Source: Novosphingobium sp. (GTDB taxonomy: Bacteria > Pseudomonadota > Alphaproteobacteria > Sphingomonadales > Sphingomonadaceae). From it: 64,000 nt of DNA. This document shows, piece by piece, positions 1,128 to 61,723 of this stretch. How positions within the stretch are numbered: position 1 is the first letter of the stretch; each line of letters opens with the position of its first letter. The translations under genes were made by a program, and so were the position numbers. Where the stretch lies: contig JANMKT010000029.1 of NCBI GenBank assembly GCA_031372185.1, positions 9,010 through 73,009 of the forward strand, in the 5' to 3' direction. The notes beneath the pieces are model-generated. The model was not told the DNA's origin. It saw only the letters and a list, made by a program, of their open reading frames with translations, and ran no database searches.

Positions 1128-2663
1128 GTGTCCGCTATTCGTCACGCCCTGTCCGTAACACGCGATGCGGACTTTGCCCTGTGGTATCAGGAAGTCATCT
1201 CCGAAGCCGAAATGGCCGAAGAATCTGGTGTGCGTGGCTGCATGGTGATCCGGCCCTGGGGCTATGGCATCTGGGAGCGGATTCAGGCGCTGATGGATGC
1301 CCGGATCAAGGCGGCGGGAGTTGAGAACTGCTATTTCCCGCTGTTCATCCCGCTCAGCTTCTTTGCCAAAGAGGCAGAGCATGTTGAGGGTTTCGCCAAA
1401 GAAATGGCAGTCGTCACCCATCACCGGTTGATTGGTGACGGGAAGGGCGGACTGGTCCCCGATCCCGAGGCGAAGCTGGAAGAACCGCTGATCGTCCGCC
1501 CGACGTCCGAAACCGTGATCGGTCAGGCGATGAGCCGCTGGATCCAGAGCTGGCGCGATCTGCCGATGCTGACCAACCAATGGGCCAACGTCGTCCGCTG
1601 GGAAATGCGCACGCGGATGTTCCTGCGGACCAGCGAGTTTCTCTGGCAGGAGGGCCACACCGCCCACGCTGACCAGAGCGATGCGATGGAAGAAACGCTG
1701 CGCGCGCTGGAGATGTACCGCTCCTTCTCGGAAGAAGCGCTGGCCATGCCGGTCATCGCCGGCGAAAAGCCCGAGAATGAGCGCTTCCCCGGTGCGGTCG
1801 CAACCTATTCGATCGAAGCGATGATGCAGGACGGCAAGGCATTGCAGGCCGGTACGTCGCATTATCTGGGCACGGGTTTCGCCGAGGCGGCGGGCATCCG
1901 TTATCAGGACAAGGAAGGCCAGCAGGCGCTGTGCCACACCACCAGCTGGGGGGTTTCAACGCGGCTCATCGGCGGCGTCATCATGACCCACGGCGATGAT
2001 GATGGCTTGCGGGTTCCGCCGGCGATTGCGCCGCACCAGATCGTGATCCTGCCGATGCTGCGCGACGGTGATGGCGATGCGGCGCTGCTGGCCTATTGCG
2101 CTGAAATCCGCGCTGAGCTCATCAAGCAATCCACGCTTGGCGAGCCGATCCGCGTGTTGCTCGACAAGCGCGCCGGCAAGGCCACCCAAAAGCGCTGGGG
2201 CTGGGTCAAGAAGGGCGTGCCGCTGATCCTGGAAATCGGCGGACGCGATGCGGCAAGCGGCCAGGTTTCAGTACTGCGCCGCGACCGGCTGTGGCGCGAT
2301 GATGCCAAGCCCAACTTTGTCGGGCAGGGCAGGGAAGAATTCCTCGGCTCGGCCGCCGGTGAGCTTGAGGATGTGCAGGCCTCGCTCCATACTGAGGCAA
2401 AGAACCGCCTCGACACAAACATTGCCCGCGACGTCACCGATCTTGCCGCGCATTTCACGGGCGGTGAGAATAAATTCGTCGGCTGGGCAGAAGTCCAATG
2501 GTCGCGACCGACAGGCACGACACTCATCAAGATCGTCGAGCAGTTGAAAGCCCTCAAACTCACCATGCGCAACACCCCATTGGATACCGCGCCTGCGGAT
2601 GGAGTGTGCTTCTTCACAGGCGAGAAGGCAGTTGAGCGGGTGCTGGTGGGGCGAACTTATTGA
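1128..2663 (+). CDS. proS: proline--tRNA ligase (archaeal/eukaryotic-like type)
   Basis: RPWGYGIWE, RPTSET, RTSEFLWQEGHT, QAGTSHYLG; no large INS editing insertion. Confidence 0.95.
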   Translation: MSAIRHALSVTRDADFALWYQEVISEAEMAEESGVRGCMVIRPWGYGIWERIQALMDARIKAAGVENCYFPLFIPLSFFAKEAEHVEGFAKEMAVVTHHRLIGDGKGGLVPDPEAKLEEPLIVRPTSETVIGQAMSRWIQSWRDLPMLTNQWANVVRWEMRTRMFLRTSEFLWQEGHTAHADQSDAMEETLRALEMYRSFSEEALAMPVIAGEKPENERFPGAVATYSIEAMMQDGKALQAGTSHYLGTGFAEAAGIRYQDKEGQQALCHTTSWGVSTRLIGGVIMTHGDDDGLRVPPAIAPHQIVILPMLRDGDGDAALLAYCAEIRAELIKQSTLGEPIRVLLDKRAGKATQKRWGWVKKGVPLILEIGGRDAASGQVSVLRRDRLWRDDAKPNFVGQGREEFLGSAAGELEDVQASLHTEAKNRLDTNIARDVTDLAAHFTGGENKFVGWAEVQWSRPTGTTLIKIVEQLKALKLTMRNTPLDTAPADGVCFFTGEKAVERVLVGRTY

Positions 2664-2758
2664 GGAACTCAAGATGTCGCAAACCGCAATCCAGACTGTG
2701 CGAATTGCAATTGTTACTGAAACACACTATATTCGCGTAACACCAAGCAAGGCCGATC

Positions 2759-3001
2759 ATGGGCAAGCACGAAACCATCAAGCCAAGCAGCACCGAGCGG
2801 GTGCGCAAACACCGCGCCGAAATGCGCGCCAAGGGCTATCGGCTTAAGCAGGTGTGGGTACGGGACAGGAACGATCCTGCGTATATAGCTGAGATTGAGC
2901 GCTCGAATCGGATCATAAACGAATTTGAGCGAAAGCATCCCGAAGAAGCAGGCTGGATGGATGAATTTGTCGCGCGCGCATGGAATGACCTGCCGGATTG
3001 A
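2759..3001 (+). CDS. antitoxin, MazE-like (DUF3018-type)
   Basis: 80 aa, RVRKHRAEMRAKGYRLKQVWVRD; stop overlaps the toxin start (TGATG). Confidence 0.75.
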   Translation: MGKHETIKPSSTERVRKHRAEMRAKGYRLKQVWVRDRNDPAYIAEIERSNRIINEFERKHPEEAGWMDEFVARAWNDLPD

Positions 3002-3330
3002 TGGCTGCGCGAGGAACGGTCCTGATCGTATCTACTGGAGGCGGGTTTCGTGCCAAGCCGCGCCCTGCGGTTGTCATTCAGGACTCGCGATACGAATTTG
3101 CCGAGACGATCATCGTGGTTCCGCTCACAAGCTTTGAAATCGACGAAGATCCGGCGATGCCGCTCTTTCTTCCCGACGGCGGAAACGGTCTTGCGGAAGC
3201 AAGTCGATTCATGACTCAAAGGATGGGTGCGATTCCAAAGTCTGATGTTGGACGCGTTATTGGCGTTCTGTCGGAGGAAGACCTGGAACGGGTCGATCTC
3301 GCTCTCCAAATGGTGCTTGGCTTGGGCTAA
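3001..3330 (+). CDS. PemK/MazF-family toxin
   Basis: RG..V....KPRPAVVIQD....IVVPLTS pattern of PemK-like endoribonucleases. Confidence 0.88.
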   Translation: MAARGTVLIVSTGGGFRAKPRPAVVIQDSRYEFAETIIVVPLTSFEIDEDPAMPLFLPDGGNGLAEASRFMTQRMGAIPKSDVGRVIGVLSEEDLERVDLALQMVLGLG

Positions 3331-3376
3331 CCAAAGCCGCTGGCGTGAGGCTGCACGACCGGCTACCGGATATTGC

Positions 3377-5617
3377 ATGCCCAAACCCCAGCCTGGCCTG
3401 CCCAGCCCCAAACAGATCCTCGAATTCGTCGCCAGCTCTCCCACGCCCGCAGGCAAGCGCGAGATTGCCCGTCATTTCGGCCTCAAAGGGCAAGAGAAGA
3501 TCGCGCTCAAGGCGCTGCTCCGCGATATGACCGATGAGGGCCTGATCGACGGCGAAAAGCGGGCGTTCCACCGGATGGGCGGAGTGCCCAAGGTCACCGT
3601 ATTGCGGGTAATGGTGATCGAGGACGGCGAGGCCTTCGCCATCCCCGACAATTGGTCACCCGATGATGCCAGCCCTCCGCTGCGGCTGCGGCTGGTCGAA
3701 AAGGGTAGCCGCAGCGCGCTCAAAGTGGGCGACCGGGTGCTCGCCCGGACCGAGGAAGCGGGCGCCGGGTGGCGCGCGTTCCCGATGAAAAAGCTGCCCG
3801 CCAGCGAAGAGCAATTGCTCGGAGTGGTGGAAATTGACGGAGCGGGGAAGGGCTGGCTGGCTCCGGTCGACAAGCGGGTCCGCAACGCCTCGCCGATTGT
3901 CGATCTGGGCGGAGCGGAAGCGGGCAATCTGGTGCTGGCTGAACCTGCCGGGCGCTCGACCCGCGCAGGGGTCAAGGTCACTCAGATCCTCGGCGATCCG
4001 CTCGCGCCGCGCGCCTTCAGCCTGATTGCAATCCACAAGTACGGCATTCCCAATAGCTTCGACGAAGAAACGCTGGACGAGGCGGTGCTTGCTGCCAAAC
4101 TGCCATTGAGCGCCGAAAAGCGCGAGGATTTGCGCCACCTCCCGATTGTCGCGATCGATCCCAGCGATGCGCGCGATCATGACGATGCGATCTGGGCTGA
4201 GCCCGATGACGCGGGCGGTTTCCGGGCGCTGGTGGCCATCGCCGACGTCTCGTTTTATGTCCGCCCCGGCAGCCTGGTAGACCGGGAGGCGCGCAAACGC
4301 GGCAATTCGGTTTATTTTCCGGACCGGGTCGTGCCGATGCTGCCCGAAGTGCTGAGCGCCGATGTCTGCAGCCTGCGGGCCGGTGAGGACCGGGCGGCAA
4401 TGGCCTGCCATCTGGCAATCGATGCCGATGGCCAGGTGACGTCGTGGCGCTTCACCCGCGCCATCGTCCGGATCGCCGAAGTGATTGCCTATGAAGAAGC
4501 GCAAAAGCGGATTAATGAGGGGACAGCAGGGACAAGCTTGCAGAACCTGTGGGCCGCCTGGCGCGTGCTGGCTGCGGCCCGCGCTGCCCGTGATCCGCTC
4601 GACCTTGACCTGCCCGAGCGCCGGGTGATGCTGGATCAGCAGGGCCGGATTACCGAAATTGCCTTGCGCGAGAGGTTGGATGCGCACCGTGTGGTCGAGG
4701 ATTTCATGATTTCCGCCAATGTTGCGGCTGCCAAAGCGCTGGAAAGCAAGCTCGCGCCAGTGGTTTACCGAATCCACGAACCGCCGAGCCGGGAAAAGCT
4801 GGTTGCGCTGAAGGATTACCTCGCCAGCTTCGAGCGCAAGTTCGCACTGGGTCAGGTCATCACCCCCAGCCTATTCAACCGACTTCTCAAGGATGTCATC
4901 GATGATACTGAAAAGGCGCTGATCATGGAGGCGGTTCTGCGCAGCCAGACTCAGGCCTACTACGGACCGAGCAATGCCGGACATTTCGGATTAGCGCTGG
5001 CCAGCTACGCCCATTTCACCTCGCCAATCCGCCGTTATGCCGATCTTCTGGTTCACCGCGCGCTGGTCGATGCCTTCCACCTAGAACAGCCGGCACCACA
5101 AAACGGACTTCCCGCAGCCTCAGGCCTGTCGAGCCGCGACCGCGAAGATCTGGGCAAGGTCAGCGAAGCGATCAGCGCAACTGAGCGCCGCGCGATGATG
5201 GCTGAGCGCGAGACGACCGACCGTTATGTCGCCGCCTGGCTATCCGCCCGCGTGGGTGAGGTTTTTGCGACCCGGATCACCGGGGTCCAGAAATTCGGCT
5301 TTTTCGCCACCATCATTGGCCTTGGCGGTGATGGGCTGGTCCCGGTTTCAACGCTTGGTGCCGAGCGGTTTTCCTATGATGAAAGCGCCCAAGTGCTGAG
5401 CGGCGAGCAGAGCGGCACCAGCTATGCCATGGGTATGATCGTCCGCCTGCGTCTGGCCGAGGCCAATGCGCTGACCGGCGCGTTGAAGTTCGAGCTGGAA
5501 CAAGGCGGGAGCAGCAGGATCGAGCCGCGCGGCACCCGGCCTGTGAAACCGGGCAAACACATGGTCGGCAAGCGCGGTCGTCCCGGCAATATGCGGCACT
5601 CGAACCGCAAGAAATGA
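3377..5617 (+). CDS. rnr: ribonuclease R family exoribonuclease
   Basis: RNB motifs DPSDARDHDDA and HFTSPIRRYADL; C-terminal S1 domain; ATG at 3377 chosen over the upstream in-frame extension. Confidence 0.9.
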   Translation: MPKPQPGLPSPKQILEFVASSPTPAGKREIARHFGLKGQEKIALKALLRDMTDEGLIDGEKRAFHRMGGVPKVTVLRVMVIEDGEAFAIPDNWSPDDASPPLRLRLVEKGSRSALKVGDRVLARTEEAGAGWRAFPMKKLPASEEQLLGVVEIDGAGKGWLAPVDKRVRNASPIVDLGGAEAGNLVLAEPAGRSTRAGVKVTQILGDPLAPRAFSLIAIHKYGIPNSFDEETLDEAVLAAKLPLSAEKREDLRHLPIVAIDPSDARDHDDAIWAEPDDAGGFRALVAIADVSFYVRPGSLVDREARKRGNSVYFPDRVVPMLPEVLSADVCSLRAGEDRAAMACHLAIDADGQVTSWRFTRAIVRIAEVIAYEEAQKRINEGTAGTSLQNLWAAWRVLAAARAARDPLDLDLPERRVMLDQQGRITEIALRERLDAHRVVEDFMISANVAAAKALESKLAPVVYRIHEPPSREKLVALKDYLASFERKFALGQVITPSLFNRLLKDVIDDTEKALIMEAVLRSQTQAYYGPSNAGHFGLALASYAHFTSPIRRYADLLVHRALVDAFHLEQPAPQNGLPAASGLSSRDREDLGKVSEAISATERRAMMAERETTDRYVAAWLSARVGEVFATRITGVQKFGFFATIIGLGGDGLVPVSTLGAERFSYDESAQVLSGEQSGTSYAMGMIVRLRLAEANALTGALKFELEQGGSSRIEPRGTRPVKPGKHMVGKRGRPGNMRHSNRKK

Positions 5618-25490: not shown

Positions 25491-26266
25491 TGCTGATCGA
25501 TTCGCATTGCCACCTGGAATATAAGGGCCTGGTCGAGGATCAGGCCGGGGTCCTGTCACGCGCCCGCGCGGCAGGCGTCGGGGGCTTTCTCAATATCTCG
25601 ACCCGCCAGCGCGAGTGGGATCAGGTCATATCCACGGCCATGCGTGAGCCGGACATCTGGGCTAGCGTCGGAATCCATCCGCATGAGGCCGATGACCATG
25701 CCGATCTGGGCGAAGCTGTGCTGCTCGCAGCAACCGATCACCCTAGGGTGATCGCGATTGGCGAAACCGGGCTGGATTATTACTACGACCATTCCGACCG
25801 CGCGACGCAGCGGGCGCTGTTCCGCACCCATATTGCGGTAGCACGGCAAACCGGCCTGCCGCTGATCATCCACACCCGCGATGCCGAGGATGATACCGCT
25901 GCGATCATTGCGGATGAAATGGCGCAGGGCGCTTTCCCGGCGCTGATCCACTGCTTCACTGCGTCGGCTGAGTTTGGCCGCAAGATGCTCGAACTTGGCC
26001 TCACTATCTCGATTTCAGGGATCATAACCTTCAAGAATGCCAAAGATTTGCAGAAAGTTGCTGCCAGTCTGCCTGAGGATCGCCTGCTGGTTGAAACCGA
26101 CGCGCCATTCCTGGCACCAGTGCCGCATCGCGGGCGGCCGTGCGAGCCAGCATTTGTGGCTGATACTGCTCGCTTTGTCGCCCAGCTGCGCGGCGTAACC
26201 CCTGAGGCTTTGGCGGAACAGACTACACGCAATTTCGCCACCTTGTTCAAGAAGGCCGCAGTGTGA
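25490..26266 (+). CDS. TatD family hydrolase
   Basis: DSHCH, GETGLDY, IHTRDA, IHCF, ETDAPFL. Confidence 0.95.
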   Translation: MLIDSHCHLEYKGLVEDQAGVLSRARAAGVGGFLNISTRQREWDQVISTAMREPDIWASVGIHPHEADDHADLGEAVLLAATDHPRVIAIGETGLDYYYDHSDRATQRALFRTHIAVARQTGLPLIIHTRDAEDDTAAIIADEMAQGAFPALIHCFTASAEFGRKMLELGLTISISGIITFKNAKDLQKVAASLPEDRLLVETDAPFLAPVPHRGRPCEPAFVADTARFVAQLRGVTPEALAEQTTRNFATLFKKAAV

Positions 26267-27030
26267 AACTGCTGATGCTCGGCGCCGGCACTTCGACAGG
26301 GGTACCCCGGATCGGCAACGATTGGGGCCTTTGCGACCCGGCAGAGCCGCGCAACCGCCGCTCACGCGTTTCGATCATAGTTGAAAGCACTGAAGGAACC
26401 CGGCTGCTGGTCGATACCTCAACCGATCTGCGCAACCAGCTGCTCGCCAATGATATTGACCGGGTTGATGCGGTGTTCTGGACCCACGATCACGCCGATC
26501 ATTGCCACGGGATCGATGATCTGCGGCCGATGCGCTATGGCCGATCGGGGCCGCTACCGGGCTTTGCTGCCGATGAAACGGTGCGGCGCTTGCGTCAGCG
26601 GTTCGGGTATGTTTTTGCCGGGCAAGATGGCTATTACACCATCGTCAACATCGACTCGCTCGATCGGCTGCGGATGTTCGGCGGGATTTCAGTCGGAAGT
26701 TGCCAGATGCCGCATGGTCCGGCACAAACCACCGGGTTCCGGTTTGAGGCAAACGGTAAATCAATTGGTTACGCGACAGACTTCAGTGCGATTACGCGCG
26801 AGATGGTTGAGCTGTTCGATAGCGTCGATCTGCTAGTAACCGATTGCCTGCGCCGTGAACCGCATCCTACCCATGCGCATCTTGGCATGGCGCTGGAACT
26901 GATCGAAGCCTCGCGGGCGAGCCGCGCAGTTCTGACGCATCTCGACAAGTCACTGGATTATGCCACATTGTCTGGCGAAGTCCCGCCGCATGTGGTGGTC
27001 GGCTTCGATGGCATGGAGCTGGAATTGTGA
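26263..27030 (+). CDS. MBL-fold metallo-hydrolase (PhnP-like)
   Basis: LGAGTSTGVP, THDHADHCHG, THL. Confidence 0.92.
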   Translation: MKLLMLGAGTSTGVPRIGNDWGLCDPAEPRNRRSRVSIIVESTEGTRLLVDTSTDLRNQLLANDIDRVDAVFWTHDHADHCHGIDDLRPMRYGRSGPLPGFAADETVRRLRQRFGYVFAGQDGYYTIVNIDSLDRLRMFGGISVGSCQMPHGPAQTTGFRFEANGKSIGYATDFSAITREMVELFDSVDLLVTDCLRREPHPTHAHLGMALELIEASRASRAVLTHLDKSLDYATLSGEVPPHVVVGFDGMELEL

Positions 27031-56361: not shown

Positions 56362-56472
56362 GATGCTATCCCCTAAGGCGGATTATTGATCTGCCTATAG
56401 GGGACAGCTTCAATTAGGGAAACCGCTCCATACGTATTTTGTAGCGATTCCACATGAAGTTGCGGACAGCAG

Positions 56473-56784
56473 TTAGTCGAGCAACATCACCATTTCGTCG
56501 GGATGGACGACATTGAGATTGCTGCGCAGCAATTCACCGGCAAGATCGGGATCGGCATGGCGCGGATCGAGCAGCGCAACCCGGTTCTTGAGTTCGTCCC
56601 GCTGGGCAACGAGCAGCGTTAATTCCTTTTGATGCTGCGCCAGAACGCGATTGTTTTCGCTCCACGCCAACAATCCACTTGGACCCGCAAGCGCCATTGC
56701 GCCCAGCAGCAGAAGACAGATCCAGGCAACGCCCTGGGTCATGCCTTTATTTGCGAGCTTCGGATTGCGTTGGCCATTCGTCAT
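56473..56784 (-). CDS. septum formation initiator (FtsB/DivIC family)
   Basis: TM, coiled coil, DPDLAGELLR..L..VHPDE; usual position upstream of pdhA. Confidence 0.82.
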   Translation of the reverse strand: MTNGQRNPKLANKGMTQGVAWICLLLLGAMALAGPSGLLAWSENNRVLAQHQKELTLLVAQRDELKNRVALLDPRHADPDLAGELLRSNLNVVHPDEMVMLLD

Positions 56785-56944
56785 GAACCCTTAGAATCAC
56801 AGTTATTTCGGCGGTTCAAGCAATTTCGCATTACCAGCCGTAAGAATGCAACAAAGTCAGACGAAAGTGCGCCCGGAATGGCGGGAGGACCATTCCGGGC
56901 GCGATCGCCCTACGAGAGTTGGGGGGGAGAGGGCGATCGGAGAG

Positions 56945-57892
56945 TTATTTGCCTGAAGTATCTTCCTGACGATTGGCTTCATCCTTGATTTGGCCTTCTG
57001 TCATCCCGGAGATCAGGACCGTGCCAGTGCCGGTGAAGTTTGAGGCGGGGATGCGCGCGGTCTCGCCATCTACCTTGACCACGAGTTCCTGAACCTTTCC
57101 TTCGGTGTCAGTGATTACCTCGCGGACCTTGCCAATCTTCTCGCCATCGGGCGAAACGATCCGCATCCCGCGCGCGACATCGAAGGTCCCGTCAGCGTTG
57201 CCCGCTGCACTGCCAGCCAAAGCCAATTGCCCTGCCGCACCAGAGAACAGCCCATCGGGAGAACCTATTACATCGCCTGAACCTGAACCAGTCGCGCCAG
57301 AGAGCAGCCCATTGGCCGAACCCGCTGCATTGCCAGAACCCGAACCGGCAGCGCCTGAAAGCAGCCCGTTGGCCGAACCGGTTGCATTGCCCGCAGCCGA
57401 ACCGACGACCGAAGCAGACCGTCCATCAGCCGAACTGGCTGCGTCACGGCTGCTAGTTGCGAATGCGCCAGCGGAATTGCGCGTACTCGAAGCCGCGCTC
57501 CGCAAACCGTCCGTGCCGATCAGTTGAGCGTCAGCATTGCCCGAACCACTGGCGCTGCCATTGCCCGAGCCATTGGCCGAGAGATCGCGCATCGGGGTTG
57601 AAATTGTTTGAGCGAGCCCGCCGTCACCCGAAGCATTCGCCGAACCACCGGCATTGGCGCGGCCGCTGCGGCGATCAACCGACTTGGTAGCTGCCGCATC
57701 GGCTGTTCCTGAAGTCGTGCCACGCGTGGTGCTTTCAATCGAACGCATGTCCGGAAGGCCAATCGGACCCTGGCTGCCCAGTGTGCCGCCGAGCGAGCCT
57801 CCCAGACCACCGCTGCCACCAAGTAGCTGGGCCTGTGAGGGTGTGGCTGTGGCAACAAAAAGTGCTGCCGATGCAAGAATGATAGTTTTCAT
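56945..57892 (-). CDS. secreted Gly/Ser/Ala-rich protein with C-terminal PRC-barrel
   Basis: Signal peptide, AAGGA SD, low-complexity core, GMRIVSPDGEKIGKVREV PRC-barrel. Confidence 0.8.
   Translation of the reverse strand: MKTIILASAALFVATATPSQAQLLGGSGGLGGSLGGTLGSQGPIGLPDMRSIESTTRGTTSGTADAAATKSVDRRSGRANAGGSANASGDGGLAQTISTPMRDLSANGSGNGSASGSGNADAQLIGTDGLRSAASSTRNSAGAFATSSRDAASSADGRSASVVGSAAGNATGSANGLLSGAAGSGSGNAAGSANGLLSGATGSGSGDVIGSPDGLFSGAAGQLALAGSAAGNADGTFDVARGMRIVSPDGEKIGKVREVITDTEGKVQELVVKVDGETARIPASNFTGTGTVLISGMTEGQIKDEANRQEDTSGK
57237..57407 (-). repeat. three tandem 57-bp (19-aa) coding repeats
   Basis: GNATGSANGLLSGAAGSGS / GNAAGSANGLLSGATGSGS / GDVIGSPDGLFSGAAG; equivalent DNA positions 57237, 57294, 57351. 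Confidence 0.85.
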
Positions 57893-57950
57893 AGCGTCAA
57901 TCCTTCGTTGATCTCTGAGCCAGCGCACCTTGTTCGGAGCGCTTGTGAGA

Positions 57951-57980
57951 AAAACGTATGGACGCCTGAAATTTATCCAT
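57951..57980 (-). promoter_or_regulatory. putative ECF-sigma promoter of the PRC-barrel gene
   Basis: Minus strand ATGGATAAA-N15-CGTTTT, matching both halves of the 59276-59313 palindrome. Confidence 0.65.
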
Positions 57981-58013
57981 TAATTACCAATTAAAATCGC
58001 ATGGCACTGTTAT

Positions 58014-59246
58014 TCAATGTTTTATTTTGCATTCATGGCACAGTAGTCCGCGACCAAAGGTAGTGTCGGGGCCGCGCTTACCCAGATCACGGGCTTCGCG
58101 ATCAAGGATCGATACAATCGTTGGCGCGCCCCTCGATTGCAGCGCTGCCGCGGCGCGGGCTGCGACCAGCGGGGTTGCGAACGATGTCCCGCGTACTCTC
58201 ACCAACCGGCCAACCGCATCGGCCGCCAGCATATCGGCGCCGGGAGCCGCATAATCGAGGTGAAGCGCCCTGCCCGCTTCGATCAACGCCCGGTTACGGC
58301 CATCGACACCAGTTACAGCAAGAACGCCGACATAAGAGGCTGGATAAGCTGGCGGTGCCGCCGGACCGTCATTGCCAACCGCCGCGATAATCGTAGTGCC
58401 GCACGCGCGCGCCGCAGCGATTGCCCTCGCCAGCACCGGATTGGCTGGCCCCACCAGACTGACCGAGACCACTCGAACTTTCTGCCTGACCAGCCAGTCT
58501 AACGCGCGCGTGATGGCAAACGCCCCCCCGCCAGCCGGATCCCCGCCATAAACATCCGCTGCATAAATTCGCTGCACTCCGGCCCTGAACAGCAGCGAAG
58601 CGACCGCGCTGGCGTGATTGTTGGCGCTGGCAGTGCCGATGGCAAACGGCTGAATAGCCGCAACCGGCGTAGCGCCACCCGGCGCCCCATCAATAAAACC
58701 GACCGGTTCGCTGATAGCTGCCACAGCCGGAAGCCCCATTCGCGGGAGGGCGGTTTTCGCCAACGAACCACTGGCGAAGTGAAGTTGATCGGCAGTCACC
58801 TCACTATCGGGCGCGAGCCGGGTTGCGAGCTGCTGGGCATTGGCGAGCGACATCCCCTTGGGAATATTGAACCGGGTAACCGTCATCTCCAGTCCGGCGA
58901 GCAGGCGTTGCTCGACAAGTTCAAAACCCGCCTGGTTCAACCGGGTCAAAACATCCGGCGCAGGATCGAGCATCAGCAATTCTCCACGCCGAGCCGGGGC
59001 ACCATTGATATCCCGCTCAATTGTGCCGCGATTGGAACTGAGCAACCGATCGATCCGGTCAAGCCGCACCTGCTCCAGCTGCCGTCCGATCTGGCCCGTG
59101 GCACCGTCCAGCGTGGTGCCGATCGCCCCGGTGGTGCGATCGATCACGGCGCCGGGGAGTGGCAGGAGCGACGGCAGGCCAAGCTGGGCCTGGGACGGTG
59201 CGCCGAACAGAACGGCCAGAAAAAGGGCAATGGAAGCAGTGCGCAT
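58014..59246 (-). CDS. secreted S8 (subtilase) serine peptidase
   Basis: Signal peptide; FIDG (Asp), NHASAVASL (His), AAVGNDG, GTSFATP (Ser). Confidence 0.88.
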   Translation of the reverse strand: MRTASIALFLAVLFGAPSQAQLGLPSLLPLPGAVIDRTTGAIGTTLDGATGQIGRQLEQVRLDRIDRLLSSNRGTIERDINGAPARRGELLMLDPAPDVLTRLNQAGFELVEQRLLAGLEMTVTRFNIPKGMSLANAQQLATRLAPDSEVTADQLHFASGSLAKTALPRMGLPAVAAISEPVGFIDGAPGGATPVAAIQPFAIGTASANNHASAVASLLFRAGVQRIYAADVYGGDPAGGGAFAITRALDWLVRQKVRVVSVSLVGPANPVLARAIAAARACGTTIIAAVGNDGPAAPPAYPASYVGVLAVTGVDGRNRALIEAGRALHLDYAAPGADMLAADAVGRLVRVRGTSFATPLVAARAAAALQSRGAPTIVSILDREARDLGKRGPDTTFGRGLLCHECKIKH

Positions 59247-59275
59247 GGTGTCCTCGCGAATTATTCTTTATCGGG

Positions 59276-59313
59276 CATGGATGAAACGTTCCATCCGCTT
59301 CGTTTCATCCATG
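59276..59313. promoter_or_regulatory. palindromic bidirectional ECF-type promoter
   Basis: 13-bp IR catggatgaaacg/cgtttcatccatg; reads GGATGAA-N15-CGTTTC on both strands. Confidence 0.7.
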
Positions 59314-59323
59314 GAAAACGGCT

Positions 59324-59818
59324 CTGACCAAGACTGACAGCTTCGAGGATTGCCTCACCGCCTTACTACCGCGCCTTCGCAGGTTCGCGGTTGGTTTGGC
59401 ACGCGATCGCAGCGATGCCGACGATTTGTGCCAGATGACCGTTGAGCGAGTGCTCCTGTCGCGCAACCAATGGCAGGCTGGCACCCGTCTTGATAGCTGG
59501 ATCTACCGAATCATGCGTAATCTGTGGATCGATGAAACCAGGTCCCGCAGCCGCCGCAACCGTAGTTTCGTCGATGAAGAAGCGGGCCTCTCGGTTGGTA
59601 TGGACGGCGCGCAGGAAGCTGCGGTTGAGCTTTCAATGGTTGATCGCGCCATGGCCACCCTGCCAGACGACCAACGCGAGGCAGTGTTGCTGGTGATGGT
59701 CGAAGGCTATAAATATGCCGAAGCGGCGGAGATTGTCGGTTGTCCACCTGGGACGCTTGCTTCGCGCCTGGTCCGCGGTCGTGAGGCTTTGCTTCTGGCC
59801 TTGGGAGAAACCCGATGA
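59324..59818 (+). CDS. ECF RNA polymerase sigma factor (start uncertain)
   Basis: LLPRLRRFA, DADDLCQ, WIYRIMRNLWID, LPDDQREAV, GCPPGTLASRLVRGR; no in-frame ATG/GTG upstream of region 2; CTG 59324 assumed, ATG 59311 is out of frame. Confidence 0.85.
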   Translation: MTKTDSFEDCLTALLPRLRRFAVGLARDRSDADDLCQMTVERVLLSRNQWQAGTRLDSWIYRIMRNLWIDETRSRSRRNRSFVDEEAGLSVGMDGAQEAAVELSMVDRAMATLPDDQREAVLLVMVEGYKYAEAAEIVGCPPGTLASRLVRGREALLLALGETR

Positions 59819-60531
59819 CGATCGATCGCGAATTGCTGGCGGCTTATATCGATGGCGAGCTGGACGAGGTCACGGCAGCGCGAGTCGCCCGTGAAATCGC
59901 GGCTTCGCCGGAACTGGCCACGGAAGTTGCAGCACAGAGCGGACTTCGCGGCCTGCTGGCGACGCATTACGCCCCCGTGCTGGATGAGCCGATCCCAGCG
60001 GAACTGACCGATGCAATCGAGCAGTCCCGCAAGGTCGTCGATCTGTCTGAAGTACGCGCCCGCAAGGCCGAGCGCCGCTGGATAACGCTCCGCAACGTCC
60101 GTTTTATCGGTCCTGCGCTGGCGGCTTGCCTGGTGCTGTTCCTGATAATCCCGCGCGGGGTCACCGATGAGCAGGTGCGGACCCAGAATGGCCAGCATTA
60201 CGCTGCCGGACCCCTTGACGCCGCATTGACCGGGCAGCTTGCAGCCAATCAGGAACCTACGGCCGATCCCCGGATATTGCTGAGTTTTCTCACGCAAGAT
60301 GGTTCGTTGTGCCGCGGTTTTTCTGGGGCCAAGCTGGCCGGTATCGCTTGCCGTGAAGCGCGCGGCTGGCGTTTGCGGATGGAGCGGCCGGGCAGCGCGG
60401 CGGCCAGCACCGATTATCGCCAGGCCGGGGCAGCTGATGGCGATATCCTCGCCGCAGCGCAGGAAATGGTCAAAGGCGGTCCACTTGACGCTGAAGCTGA
60501 GCGCAAAGCGCAAGCCAATGGTTGGCGCTAG
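59815..60531 (+). CDS. transmembrane anti-sigma factor
   Basis: LLAAYIDGELD N-terminus, single TM, periplasmic domain with CRGF...ACR; ATGA overlap with the sigma gene. Confidence 0.8.
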   Translation: MTIDRELLAAYIDGELDEVTAARVAREIAASPELATEVAAQSGLRGLLATHYAPVLDEPIPAELTDAIEQSRKVVDLSEVRARKAERRWITLRNVRFIGPALAACLVLFLIIPRGVTDEQVRTQNGQHYAAGPLDAALTGQLAANQEPTADPRILLSFLTQDGSLCRGFSGAKLAGIACREARGWRLRMERPGSAAASTDYRQAGAADGDILAAAQEMVKGGPLDAEAERKAQANGWR

Positions 60532-60640
60532 GCGAGGTTGATCCGTTCAGCGAAGCCTGGCAGCAGGTTTGCAAGACTTGACATTTCCGTGTGGATGTTG
60601 CCAATCTGGTTTCTATTGAAACTATTTACGAGCCGCTGCC

Positions 60641-61723
60641 ATGACTGACCTGTTCGATAACCCGCTTGGCCTCGACGGCTTCGAATTCGTTGAGTTCTCG
60701 GCGCCTGAAAAGGGTGTGCTCGAACCGGTGTTCGCGGCAATGGGATTTGCCCTCATCGCCCGGCATCGCTCCAAGGATGTCCAGCTGTGGCGTCAGGGCG
60801 AGATCAATCTGATCGCCAATTACGAGCCGCGTAGCCCGGCTGCCTATTTCACCGCCGAACACGGCCCCTCCGCCTGCGGGATGGCCTTTCGCGTGCGCGA
60901 CGCGGCCAAAGCCTATGCTCTGGCGCTCGAACGCGGAGCTGAACCGGTTGAAGTCCGAACCGGCCCGATGGAACTCAGCCTGCCTGCCATTCGCGGCATC
61001 GGCGGCTCGATCATCTACCTGATCGACCGCTACGGCGATGACGGCCTGAGCATCTATGACATTGACTTCAACTATGAACCCGGCGCTGACCGCCATCCAG
61101 TTGGCGCAGGCATGCGGATAATCGATCACCTTACCCACAACCTTTACGGCGGGCGGATGGCCCATTGGGCGGCCTTTTATGAACGGATCTTCAACTTCCG
61201 CGAGATCCGCTATTTCGACATCAAGGGTGAATATACCGGCCTGACCAGCAAGGCGATGACCGCGCCCGATGGCAAGATCCGCATTCCACTCAATGAGGAA
61301 GGCCAGAAGGGAGGCGGCCAGATCGAGGAATACCTGCGCGCCTATAATGGCGAAGGCATCCAGCACATCGCCTTTTCCTGCGACGATCTTTATACTGCCT
61401 GGGACAAGCTAAAGGCGCTCGGCACCCCCTTCGCCCCGGCTCCGCCAGCGACCTATTACGAGATGCTGGCCGAGCGTTTGCCGGGACACGGCGAGCCGGT
61501 CGATGCGCTGCAAACCCGCGGCATCCTGCTCGATGGCTCGACCGAAAATAATGACCCGCGCCTGCTGCTTCAAATCTTCTCGAAAACCATGGTCGGGCCA
61601 GTGTTCTTCGAATTCATCCAGCGAAAGAAGGACGAAGGCTTTGGCGAGGGCAATTTCACCGCGCTGTTCAAATCGATGGAAGCCGATCAGATCCGGCGCG
61701 GGGCTTTACAGATCGACGGCTGA
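60641..61723 (+). CDS. hppD: 4-hydroxyphenylpyruvate dioxygenase
   Basis: [27 protein letters not shown]. Confidence 0.96.

What the first reader, a model, noticed from the sequence alone, without database searches (positions are those of the whole stretch)
56945..60531. Self-contained ECF sigma/anti-sigma/subtilase/PRC-barrel module with a palindromic two-way promoter
Seen: the 65-bp gap between the S8 peptidase gene and the divergent ATG at 59311 holds a perfect 13-bp inverted repeat that reads ATGGATGAA-N15-CGTTTC on both strands. A third copy with identical spacing, ATGGATAAA-N15-CGTTTT, lies upstream of the secreted Gly/Ser-rich PRC-barrel gene. Known: ECF promoters are bipartite, often with CGT in the -10 element, and are usually autoregulated; TM anti-sigmas are released by proteolysis. 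Inference: a four-gene regulon in which one palindrome drives both the regulator and a secreted protease, which could process the repeat protein or the anti-sigma ectodomain in a feedback loop.
Basis: partly seen in the sequence, partly recalled or inferred. Interest (0 to 1): 0.7.

Follow-up and report, generated by a model that had tools for sequence, protein, structure and literature searches.

The report
Two-way palindromic ECF sigma promoter
A stress-signalling unit of a freshwater Novosphingobium (sigma factor, membrane anti-sigma factor, secreted protease, secreted glycine-rich protein) carries one promoter motif three times; two copies are woven into one 32-bp palindrome that most likely fires both ways, a layout conserved across Sphingomonadaceae and not found in the papers searched, whereas the unit itself is a known type.

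Summary
A perfect 13-bp inverted repeat (59276-59288 / 59301-59313) reads GGATGAA-N15-CGTTT on both strands. A third copy lies before the PRC-barrel gene. These are the only three matches in the 2.64-Mb assembly.

Comparison with 80 related loci supports the promoter reading:
- 78 keep the gene order anti-sigma <- sigma | -> S8 peptidase.
- All 78 keep the dyad GGATKAAACG-N12-CGTTTMATCC (66 exact, 12 with one mismatch), with 63 different spacers.
- 64 keep a non-palindromic GGATKAA-N15-CGT just after the S8 stop, before the PRC/Gly-rich gene where one is present.

The non-palindromic third site, and independent variation of one position in the two arms, argue for two superposed sigma promoters and against a dimer operator or a hairpin.

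The module is homologous to Sinorhizobium meliloti RpoE6-EcfR6 with its divergent serine protease SMa0142 (group ECF26). There the sigma factor was shown to induce the protease. That relative and three others outside the family have no palindrome.

Corrections: ATG 59311 is not the sigma start, which is probably ACG 59318 or CTG 59324. Nothing shows what the protease cleaves. No transcript data could be obtained.

Verdict: a known kind of module with an apparently undescribed, conserved promoter architecture.

The parts
56869..56902 (-). Intrinsic terminator after the PRC gene; left end of the unit
   Evidence: 14-pair stem (10 G-C) followed by a T-rich tail.
56945..57892 (-). Secreted Gly/Ala/Ser-rich protein with a C-terminal PRC barrel (315 aa)
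   Evidence: Pfam PRC, E 1e-6, residues 242-280. Signal-peptide-like N-terminus MKTIILASAALFVATATPSQAQ. Residues 23-235 are G 23%, A 18%, S 18%. A homologue lies downstream of S8 in about 70 of 80 loci.
57952..57978 (-). Predicted PRC promoter: -35 GGATAAA (57978-57972), N15, -10 CGTTT (57956-57952); predicted start near 57944
   Evidence: A GGATKAA-N15-CGT site lies just after the S8 stop in 64 of 80 loci, and it is not palindromic. The start site is inferred from the distance between CGTT and the mapped start at S. meliloti SMa0142.
58014..59246 (-). Secreted S8 (subtilisin-type) serine peptidase, 410 aa, with an N-terminal non-catalytic region
   Evidence: Pfam Peptidase_S8, E 3e-16. Subtilisin BPN' E 3e-17. 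D185, H211, N292, S354 and C403/C406 are invariant in 80 sequences. 32% identical over 367 aa to the S8 peptidase at the SMa0142 position on S. meliloti pSymA.
59276..59313 (.). Perfect 13-bp inverted repeat with a 12-nt spacer; the conserved core dyad is GGATGAAACG-N12-CGTTTCATCC at 59279-59310
   Evidence: The dyad is present in 78 of 78 related loci, 66 exact and 12 with one mismatch, with 63 distinct spacers. The exact dyad is in 68 of 401 genomes of the order, all in one family, and the control pattern is in none.
59279..59305 (+). Predicted sigma-operon promoter: -35 GGATGAA (59279-59285), -10 CGTTT (59301-59305); predicted start near 59313
   Evidence: Autoregulation is shown for the S. 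meliloti homologue RpoE6.
59284..59310 (-). Predicted S8 promoter: -35 GGATGAA (59310-59304), -10 CGTTT (59288-59284); predicted start near 59276, giving a 30-nt leader with GAGGA before ATG 59246
   Evidence: The homologous protease SMa0142 is induced log2 4.7 by RpoE6 from a mapped GGAATA...CGTT promoter.
59318..59818 (+). ECF sigma factor (sigma-2 plus sigma-4), probably starting at ACG 59318 or CTG 59324 rather than at ATG 59311 or TTG 59396
   Evidence: Pfam Sigma70_r2 and r4_2. 45% identical to S. meliloti RpoE6, E 5e-41. Relatives L002 and L003 have ATG where the window has ACG, and CTG is the only candidate start at the aligned position in many loci.
59815..60531 (+). Anti-sigma factor: N-terminal anti-sigma domain, one transmembrane helix (about 97-115), periplasmic alpha/beta domain; its start overlaps the sigma stop (ATGA)
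   Evidence: zf-HC2 weak hit, E 4e-4. Hydrophobic segment 92-118. AlphaFold2 mean pLDDT 86.5, periplasmic domain mostly above 95. No PDB relative by sequence or by fold. C166, C179, W185 and W237 are invariant in 52 sequences.

Best explanation
This is the Sphingomonadaceae version of the ECF26-type signalling module known from Sinorhizobium meliloti: RpoE6, its anti-sigma factor EcfR6 and the divergent serine protease SMa0142.

Proposed mechanism:
1. The membrane anti-sigma factor holds the sigma factor inactive until an unknown envelope signal inactivates it.
2. The freed sigma factor directs RNA polymerase to promoters of the form GGAT(G/T)AA-N15-CGTT.
3. The window has three such promoters. 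One lies before the PRC-barrel gene. The other two occupy the same 32 bp (59279-59310) on opposite strands, so that the -35 box of each (GGATGAAAC) is the complement of the -10 box of the other (CGTTT).
4. One promoter fires rightwards into the sigma/anti-sigma operon (start near 59313). The other fires leftwards into the S8 protease gene (start near 59276).
5. Both share one polymerase-sized site, so a polymerase can sit there in only one orientation at a time. The regulator and the protease are therefore switched on together, and any base change in an arm affects both promoters. That explains the near-invariance of the arms.

Shown here: the motifs, their uniqueness in the genome, their conservation pattern and the homology. 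Shown by others for a homologue: the sigma factor induces its own operon and the protease. Inferred: the transcription start sites, use of both directions in this organism, mutual exclusion, the signal, and the protease's substrate.
For: 1. The motif occurs 3 times in the window (0.01 expected) and only there in the genome.
2. Gene order is conserved in 78 of 80 loci.
3. The dyad is kept in 78 of 78 loci while the 12-nt spacer is free, with 63 distinct sequences.
4. The site just after the S8 stop keeps only GGATKAA(A) and (C)CGTT at the same spacing. It lacks the inner 'CG' and the outer 'CATCC' that are invariant in the dyad. The extra conserved bases of each arm are therefore exactly what the opposite-strand promoter requires (logos).
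5. Position 5 of the two arms varies independently: G/G 35, G/T 20, T/T 7, others 4 of 66. There is thus no selection for perfect symmetry or for base pairing.
6. In 10 complete or draft relatives, whole-genome hits to the motif cluster at the module, 2-9 per genome against 0-1 for the control.
7. The exact dyad is usually single-copy and is restricted to one family: 68 of 401 genomes, control 0.
8. Homology: sigma 45% identical to RpoE6, S8 32% identical over 367 aa to the S8 peptidase at the SMa0142 position, same gene order on pSymA.
9. RpoE6 overexpression raises rpoE6, ecfR6 and SMa0142 by log2 4.5, 3.6 and 4.7, and a PRC-barrel gene by 1.9, from GGAATA...CGTT promoters with mapped starts (PMC6180224).
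10. GGAATA(A)-N14/15-CGT precedes the S8 gene in Shinella, Agrobacterium, Paracoccus and Aminobacter.
11. No sigma-70-like promoter was found in the intergenic regions. No transcription-factor gene is conserved in the unit.
Against: - There are no transcript or start-site data for this organism or for any sphingomonad carrying the dyad.
- No binding or in vitro transcription data exist.
- The -35 box differs from the published ECF26 consensus (GGATGAA or GGATTAA against GGAATA).
- The sigma factor is almost as similar to the genome's own EcfG (41%) as to RpoE6 (45%), so which sigma factor reads these sites is inferred from linkage.
- In S. meliloti the mapped rpoE6 start is assigned to an RpoD/RpoH-like promoter, not a clean ECF motif. 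Autoregulation through an ECF promoter is therefore not universal in the family.
- In 12 of 78 loci one arm has a mismatch, so one direction may be weaker or unused there.
Confidence: 0.78

Rival explanations
1. The palindrome is the operator of a dimeric DNA-binding regulator (repressor or activator) that controls the two divergent genes. The resemblance to ECF promoter boxes is incidental.
For: It is a perfect dyad of two 10-13-bp arms with a fixed 12-bp spacer, centred between divergent genes. That is the classic geometry of a dimer operator.
Against: - The third conserved site, before the PRC gene, keeps the two boxes at the same spacing but is not an inverted repeat at all.
- Arm position 5 varies independently in the two arms.
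- No regulator gene other than the sigma factor is conserved in the unit.
- The boxes match the experimentally mapped promoters of the homologous S. meliloti sigma factor.
Confidence: 0.06
2. Only one of the two superposed promoters is used, for example the one towards the sigma operon. The S8 gene is transcribed from elsewhere, and the second motif is a by-product of the self-complementarity of the boxes (AAAC in -35, GTTT in -10).
For: - The -35 tail AAAC and the -10 core GTTT are complementary, so part of the symmetry comes for free.
- 12 of 78 loci have a mismatch in one arm.
- S. meliloti and Shinella manage with separate, non-superposed promoters.
Against: - The outer GGAT of each arm is not needed by the opposite promoter's -10 box. 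The PRC promoters show no conservation at those positions. Yet it is kept in both arms in 66 of 78 loci, and with one mismatch in the rest.
- The S8 gene is preceded by an ECF26-type motif in every outgroup examined, and it is the strongest-induced neighbour of RpoE6.
- No sigma-70-like promoter lies before S8.
Confidence: 0.1
3. The inverted repeat acts as a DNA or RNA hairpin (cruciform, terminator or attenuator) rather than as promoter boxes.
For: It can form a 13-bp stem. The terminator scan flags a weak stem-loop inside it.
Against: - It lies between two divergent gene starts, where nothing needs terminating.
- The predicted starts lie at its outer edges, so neither mRNA would contain both arms.
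- 24 of 66 loci break the pairing at arm position 5 without a compensating change.
- The spacer shows little self-complementarity: 2.2 of 6 pairs against about 1.6 expected by chance.
Confidence: 0.02

Closest known systems
Sinorhizobium meliloti RpoE6-EcfR6 with the divergent serine protease SMa0142 (group ECF26; Lang et al. 2018, PMC6180224; context noted there as widely conserved, citing Staron et al. 2009)
   Same: - Same gene order: anti-sigma <- sigma | -> S8 peptidase.
- Sigma 45% identical, S8 32% identical over 367 aa, anti-sigma N-terminal domains alignable.
[quoted passage not shown]
- A bipartite GGAxxAA...CGTT promoter precedes the protease gene.
- Small, mostly local regulon. A PRC-barrel gene is also among the RpoE6-induced genes.
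- Physiological role unknown.
   Different: - In S. meliloti the two promoters are separate and cross each other, and the rpoE6 start is assigned to an RpoD/RpoH-like promoter. Here the two are fused into one dyad.
- The -35 box is GGAATA there and GGAT(G/T)AA here.
- No PRC or Gly-rich gene follows the protease gene there.
- That module is plasmid-borne; this one is chromosomal.
Symmetric bidirectional sigma-70 promoters of E. coli and other prokaryotes (PMC12825309; PMC10268837)
   Same: One short pseudo-symmetric DNA segment can engage RNA polymerase in either orientation and drive divergent transcripts. One binding event excludes the other, which creates potential for competition.
   Different: There the two promoters share the -10 element, and the starts are typically 18 bp apart (also 10 or 23). 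Here the -35 of each promoter coincides with the -10 of the other, the predicted starts are about 37 bp apart, and the sigma factor is an ECF type. That paper mentions no ECF or alternative sigma factor.
EcfG/NepR/PhyR general stress response (group ECF15) of Alphaproteobacteria
   Same: - Similar sigma sequence: 41% to this genome's own EcfG on contig C97. Pfam PhyR_sigma2 also matches.
- A CGTT -10 box.
- PRC-barrel proteins are typical targets (PMC6599016).
- RpoE6 and the EcfG-type RpoE2 regulons overlap in S. meliloti.
   Different: The partner here is a transmembrane anti-sigma factor, not NepR/PhyR. The -35 box and the spacing differ: GGAT(G/T)AA-N15 against GGAAC-N16/17. The genuine PhyR-NepR-EcfG locus lies elsewhere in this genome.

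Membership tests
ECF26-type sigma/anti-sigma module (RpoE6 subgroup) | Sigma factor made only of sigma-2 and sigma-4 domains | tested here: met
   Pfam Sigma70_r2 (E 3e-13) and Sigma70_r4_2 (E 8e-17), nothing else; about 165 aa.
ECF26-type sigma/anti-sigma module (RpoE6 subgroup) | Sequence assignment to group ECF26 by the ECF classification models (ECFfinder / ECF Hub) | tested here: inconclusive
   Those models are not available here. The stand-in is 45% identity, E 5e-41, to RpoE6, which Lang et al. classed as ECF26. The genome's own EcfG (ECF15) is 41% identical. NCBIfam hits all fall below their cut-offs.
ECF26-type sigma/anti-sigma module (RpoE6 subgroup) | [quoted passage not shown] | tested here: met
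   ATGA start/stop overlap at 59815-59818. zf-HC2 hit at residues 5-24. One hydrophobic segment, 92-118. The AlphaFold2 model shows an N-terminal helical domain, a helix through the membrane region and a compact alpha/beta domain at 121-238. The N-terminal domain weakly resembles RslA.
ECF26-type sigma/anti-sigma module (RpoE6 subgroup) | Target promoter with -35 GGAATA and -10 (C)GT | tested here: inconclusive
   The motif here is GGAT(G/T)AA-N15-CGTT. That is one or two changes from GGAATAA, with spacing within 1 bp of the outgroup sites. It is a variant of the consensus, not an exact match. Recognition by this sigma factor is not shown.
ECF26-type sigma/anti-sigma module (RpoE6 subgroup) | Divergently transcribed serine protease gene next to the sigma gene | tested here: met
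   The S8 peptidase is divergent from sigma in the window, in 78 of 80 related loci, and in S. meliloti, Shinella, Agrobacterium, Paracoccus and Aminobacter.
Symmetric bidirectional promoters of the sigma-70 type | The two divergent promoters share (part of) one -10 element, with starts about 18 bp apart (also 10 or 23) | tested here: not met
   Here each -10 box coincides with the other promoter's -35 box. The two -10 boxes are 12 bp apart and the predicted starts about 37 bp apart.
Symmetric bidirectional promoters of the sigma-70 type | Polymerase binds in either orientation and the two events exclude each other | not testable with these tools
   Follows from geometry only: both promoters lie within the same 32 bp. 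It needs in vitro transcription or footprinting.
Anti-sigma factors released by regulated proteolysis (RseA/DegS/RseP, RsiW/PrsW/RasP type) | A defined site-1 protease cleaves the periplasmic part of the anti-sigma factor on signal | not testable with these tools
   The S8 peptidase is a candidate only by linkage. It stays with the sigma/anti-sigma pair where the PRC gene is absent. No cleavage data exist, and the periplasmic domain has no solved relative.

The most novel reading that the evidence does not exclude
The dyad is a single-occupancy, two-way promoter that splits each initiation event between 'more regulator' (sigma plus anti-sigma) and 'protease', at a ratio set by small arm asymmetries. 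The S8-facing arm has G at position 5 in 55 of 66 loci, the sigma-facing arm T in 27 of 66. In addition, the co-induced S8 protease is itself part of the switch: it cleaves the periplasmic domain of the anti-sigma factor, or a secreted Gly-rich protein that shields that domain. The module would then be a self-amplifying, possibly bistable, envelope sensor.
Probability: 0.2. Interest if true: 0.7.

Novelty: new variant of a known kind. Interest (0 to 1): 0.45.

Why it matters
- It would be a second way to build a bidirectional bacterial promoter. The described sigma-70 cases share a -10 element. Here an ECF sigma factor's -35 and -10 boxes are complementary enough to be laid over each other on opposite strands in 32 bp.
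- The layout gives a natural test bed for polymerase competition at a promoter that depends on one dedicated sigma factor.
- It offers a compact, probably orthogonal two-way part for the ECF-based genetic circuits already built from ECF26 members.
- It explains an unusually invariant non-coding 10-mer in Sphingomonadaceae.
- It defines a very small regulon (protease, Gly-rich PRC-barrel protein, sometimes an outer-membrane-like protein). That narrows the search for the still unknown function of the RpoE6-type systems.

Tried and rejected
- Supplementary tables of the ECF reclassification paper, to get the ECF26 subgroup with an S8 neighbour: not held. The main text mentions only the catalase/cytochrome b561 subgroup.
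- Literature searches for ECF plus palindromic or bidirectional promoters, and for the literal 10-mers, returned only unrelated papers and primers.
- ATG 59311 as the sigma start or as a conserved leaderless mini-ORF: rejected. An in-frame TGA follows after 8 codons, and the ATG is not kept in relatives such as L002, L011 and L022.
- TTG 59396 as the sigma start: rejected. The upstream 24 codons are conserved at the protein level, and 4 of 5 differences from L002 are synonymous.
- Membership of this genome's mobile palindromic repeat family: rejected, because the arm is unique in the genome.
- EcfG promoter reading (GGAAC-N16/17-CGTT): the GAAAC inside the arm is only 13 nt from CGTT, so it does not fit.
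- Fold search of the anti-sigma model against the PDB: nothing for the periplasmic domain (best E 0.4). Sequence searches of the PDB with the anti-sigma factor and the PRC protein gave nothing useful.
- Pfam on the optional outer-membrane-like protein: no family.
- The candidate fourth site on contig C30 could not be tested by conservation. That region is absent from 60 genomes of the genus.

Full report
**What is there**

Reading 56400-61200 and listing ORFs gives, from left to right:
- A strong terminator at 56869-56902 on the minus strand.
- A 315-aa secreted Gly/Ala/Ser-rich protein with a C-terminal PRC barrel (56945-57892, minus strand; Pfam PRC E 1e-6; composition).
- A 410-aa S8 peptidase (58014-59246, minus strand).
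- An ECF sigma factor on the plus strand, ending at 59818.
- An anti-sigma factor (59815-60531) whose ATG overlaps the sigma stop.

The S8 peptidase has an intact catalytic set. D185, H211, N292 and S354 are invariant in 80 homologues, and H211, N292 and S354 align with the catalytic His, Asn and Ser of subtilisin BPN'. The anti-sigma factor has a weak zf-HC2 anti-sigma N-terminus and one hydrophobic helix at about 97-115. It also has a confidently modelled periplasmic alpha/beta domain (AlphaFold2 mean pLDDT 86.5). That domain has no solved relative by sequence or by fold.

**The observation**

CATGGATGAAACG (59276-59288) and CGTTTCATCCATG (59301-59313) form a perfect 13-bp inverted repeat with a 12-nt spacer. 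GGATGAA-N15-CGTTT is therefore read on both strands. A third copy, GGATAAA-N15-CGTTT, lies on the minus strand at 57978-57952, 60 nt before the PRC start.

The pattern GGATRAA-N15-CGTTT has 3 matches in the window against 0.01 expected. The same three are the only matches in the whole 2.64-Mb assembly. The arm occurs nowhere else in the genome.

ATG 59311 opens only eight codons before a TGA, so it is not the sigma start. The gap is 64 bp, not 65.

**Is it conserved?**

A scan of one genome per species with the S8 protein found 208 relatives. I kept 80 loci, almost all Sphingomonadales. tblastn with the four proteins gave these counts:
- 78 of 80 loci have sigma plus anti-sigma divergent from S8.
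- About 70 have the PRC or Gly-rich gene downstream.

All 78 have the dyad GGATKAAACG-N12-CGTTTMATCC between sigma and S8. It is exact on both strands in 66 and has a single mismatch in one arm in 12. The 12-nt spacer is free, with 63 different sequences in 66 loci.

The exact dyad occurs in 68 of 401 genomes sampled across the order. All 68 are in the window's own family (20 of 96 genera), and the dyad is nearly always single-copy. The reversed control pattern occurs in none.

**Promoters or operator?**

The third site decides this. In 64 of 80 loci a GGATKAA-N15-CGT site sits just after the S8 stop, before the PRC or Gly-rich gene where one is present. Its logo keeps GGAT(T/G)AA(A) and (C)CGTT at the same spacing. 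It shows no conservation at the inner 'CG' or at the six bases after CGTT, both of which are invariant in the dyad. It is not an inverted repeat.

The extra invariant bases of each dyad arm are thus exactly those needed by a promoter on the other strand. The outer GGAT is that promoter's -35 box and the inner AACG is its -10 box.

Position 5 of the -35 box (G or T) varies independently in the two arms: G/G 35, G/T 20, T/T 7, others 4. There is therefore no selection for perfect symmetry, which a dimer operator would favour, or for pairing, which a hairpin would need.

No transcription-factor gene other than the sigma factor is conserved in the unit. No sigma-70-like promoter lies in the intergenic regions.

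**Link to experiment**

The S8 protein finds S8 peptidase genes on alphaproteobacterial plasmids. On S. meliloti pSymA the gene order is the same. The window's sigma factor is 45% identical to the sigma there (E 5e-41). The S8 proteins are 32% identical over 367 aa, including the non-catalytic N-terminal part. The anti-sigma N-termini align.

That locus is rpoE6-ecfR6 and SMa0142. Lang et al. 2018 (PMC6180224) report the following:
- They class RpoE6 in group ECF26.
- They state that its divergent arrangement with a serine protease gene is widely conserved in that group.
- RpoE6 overexpression raises rpoE6, ecfR6 and SMa0142 by log2 4.5, 3.6 and 4.7. A PRC-barrel gene rises by 1.9.
- The SMa0142 start maps 9 nt after the CGTT of a GGAATA...CGTT promoter.
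- They could not assign a function to RpoE6.

I used the distance from CGTT to that mapped start to predict starts near 59313 (sigma), 59276 (S8, leaving a 30-nt leader with GAGGA) and 57944 (PRC).

**What is specific to Sphingomonadaceae**

In S. meliloti the protease promoter and the mapped rpoE6 start cross each other and are not palindromic. In Shinella two GGAATA-type promoters stand back to back without overlap. In Agrobacterium, Paracoccus and Aminobacter a GGAATAA-N14/15-CGT site precedes the S8 gene. None of these loci has a PRC gene after S8.

The S8 gene is therefore the constant partner and target of this sigma/anti-sigma pair across Alphaproteobacteria. The PRC or Gly-rich gene, the shift of the -35 box to GGAT(G/T)AA and the fusion of the two promoters into one dyad were seen only in Sphingomonadaceae and in none of the five outgroup loci examined.

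The fusion is possible because the tail of the -35 box (AAAC) is the complement of the core of the -10 box (GTTT).

**Size of the regulon**

- In ten relatives' whole genomes the motif gives 2-9 hits against 0-1 for the control, clustered at the module.
- Nine loci have a fourth site just after the anti-sigma gene. It faces a roughly 280-aa secreted protein that looks like an outer-membrane beta-barrel and has no Pfam family.
- In Croceicoccus a site elsewhere precedes a secreted protein that looks related by eye. In N. flavum, where no PRC-type gene directly follows S8, a site elsewhere precedes a Gly-rich secreted protein.
- The window's genome has one copy of the module and no such outer-membrane-like gene.
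- A weight-matrix scan finds one further strong candidate on contig C30, before a TetR-like gene. It lies in an AT-rich region absent from 60 genomes of the genus, so conservation could not test it.

**Limits**

Use of both directions, mutual exclusion of the two polymerase orientations, the inducing signal and the protease's substrate are all inferences.

Formal ECF group assignment was not possible. The sigma factor is 41% identical to this genome's own EcfG, which sits in a normal PhyR-NepR-EcfG locus on contig C97. Assignment to the RpoE6 type therefore rests on the anti-sigma architecture and the gene context as much as on identity.

**Comparison and novelty**

The module is a known kind. 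The described bidirectional bacterial promoters are sigma-70 promoters that share a -10 element, with starts about 18 bp apart (PMC12825309). Here the -35 of each promoter is the -10 of the other, the predicted starts are about 37 bp apart, and the sigma factor is an ECF type.

Full-text searches for such a layout, and for the literal 10-mers, found nothing relevant. Earlier notes of this scan describe the same layout in other sphingomonad genomes. These are not independent evidence, but they show it is a recurrent feature.

I rate it a new variant of a known kind, of moderate interest.

Noticed in passing
window 59285-59400: The sigma gene has no canonical start codon upstream of its conserved N-terminal helix. 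The frame is open from 59285, and the first ATG/GTG/TTG is TTG 59396, which would remove 24 or more conserved residues. Close relatives L002 and L003 have ATG where the window and L001 have ACG (59318). CTG 59324 is the only in-frame candidate at the aligned position in at least 15 more distant loci. The leader from the predicted start would be only about 5-11 nt.
   Followed up: partly
L008 2717-3631 (minus strand); also L006, L007, L015, L020, L046, L051, L066, L076; L086: In nine related loci a fourth copy of the promoter motif sits just after the anti-sigma gene. It faces a roughly 280-aa secreted protein that looks like an outer-membrane beta-barrel and has no Pfam family. In Croceicoccus a motif-preceded secreted protein that looks related by eye lies elsewhere. 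The window's genome has no homologue.
   Followed up: partly
genome contig C30, about 26251-26277 (minus strand); locus L091: The best genome-wide match to the PRC-type promoter matrix (score 24.3, above the three known sites) is GGATTAA-N15-CGTTG. It lies in an AT-rich intergenic region about 130 nt before a 413-aa protein with a TetR-like N-terminus. The region is absent from 60 other genomes of the genus, so it may be a real extra target or a chance match in foreign DNA.
   Followed up: partly
genome contig C97, about 1636-3549: A standard general-stress-response locus: a PhyR-like sigma-mimic response regulator, a small NepR-like gene and an EcfG-type sigma factor, with a Dps-like gene nearby. 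Its sigma factor is the closest paralogue (41%) of the window's sigma factor.
   Followed up: no
window 58014-58040 (S8 C-terminus) and 60310-60351 (anti-sigma periplasmic domain): Two pairs of invariant cysteines: C403-x2-C406 at the very C-terminus of the S8 peptidase (80 sequences), and C166/C179 in the periplasmic domain of the anti-sigma factor (52 sequences). They may form disulfides or sense redox state in the periplasm.
   Followed up: no
window 60175-60528 (anti-sigma residues 121-238): The periplasmic domain is modelled with high confidence (pLDDT mostly above 95) as a compact six-strand, three-helix fold. It has no significant match in the PDB by Foldseek (best E 0.4) or by sequence.
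   Followed up: partly
L019 and L037: Two metagenome bins labelled Stagnimonas and Burkholderiales carry the full sphingomonad-type module, dyad included, with S8 59% and 56% identical to the window's. These are probably mis-binned sphingomonad contigs, or else horizontal transfer.
   Followed up: no
The genome search handles G213, G290, G371: Three genomes of the family carry two copies of the exact dyad on different contigs or positions, which suggests duplicated modules.
   Followed up: no
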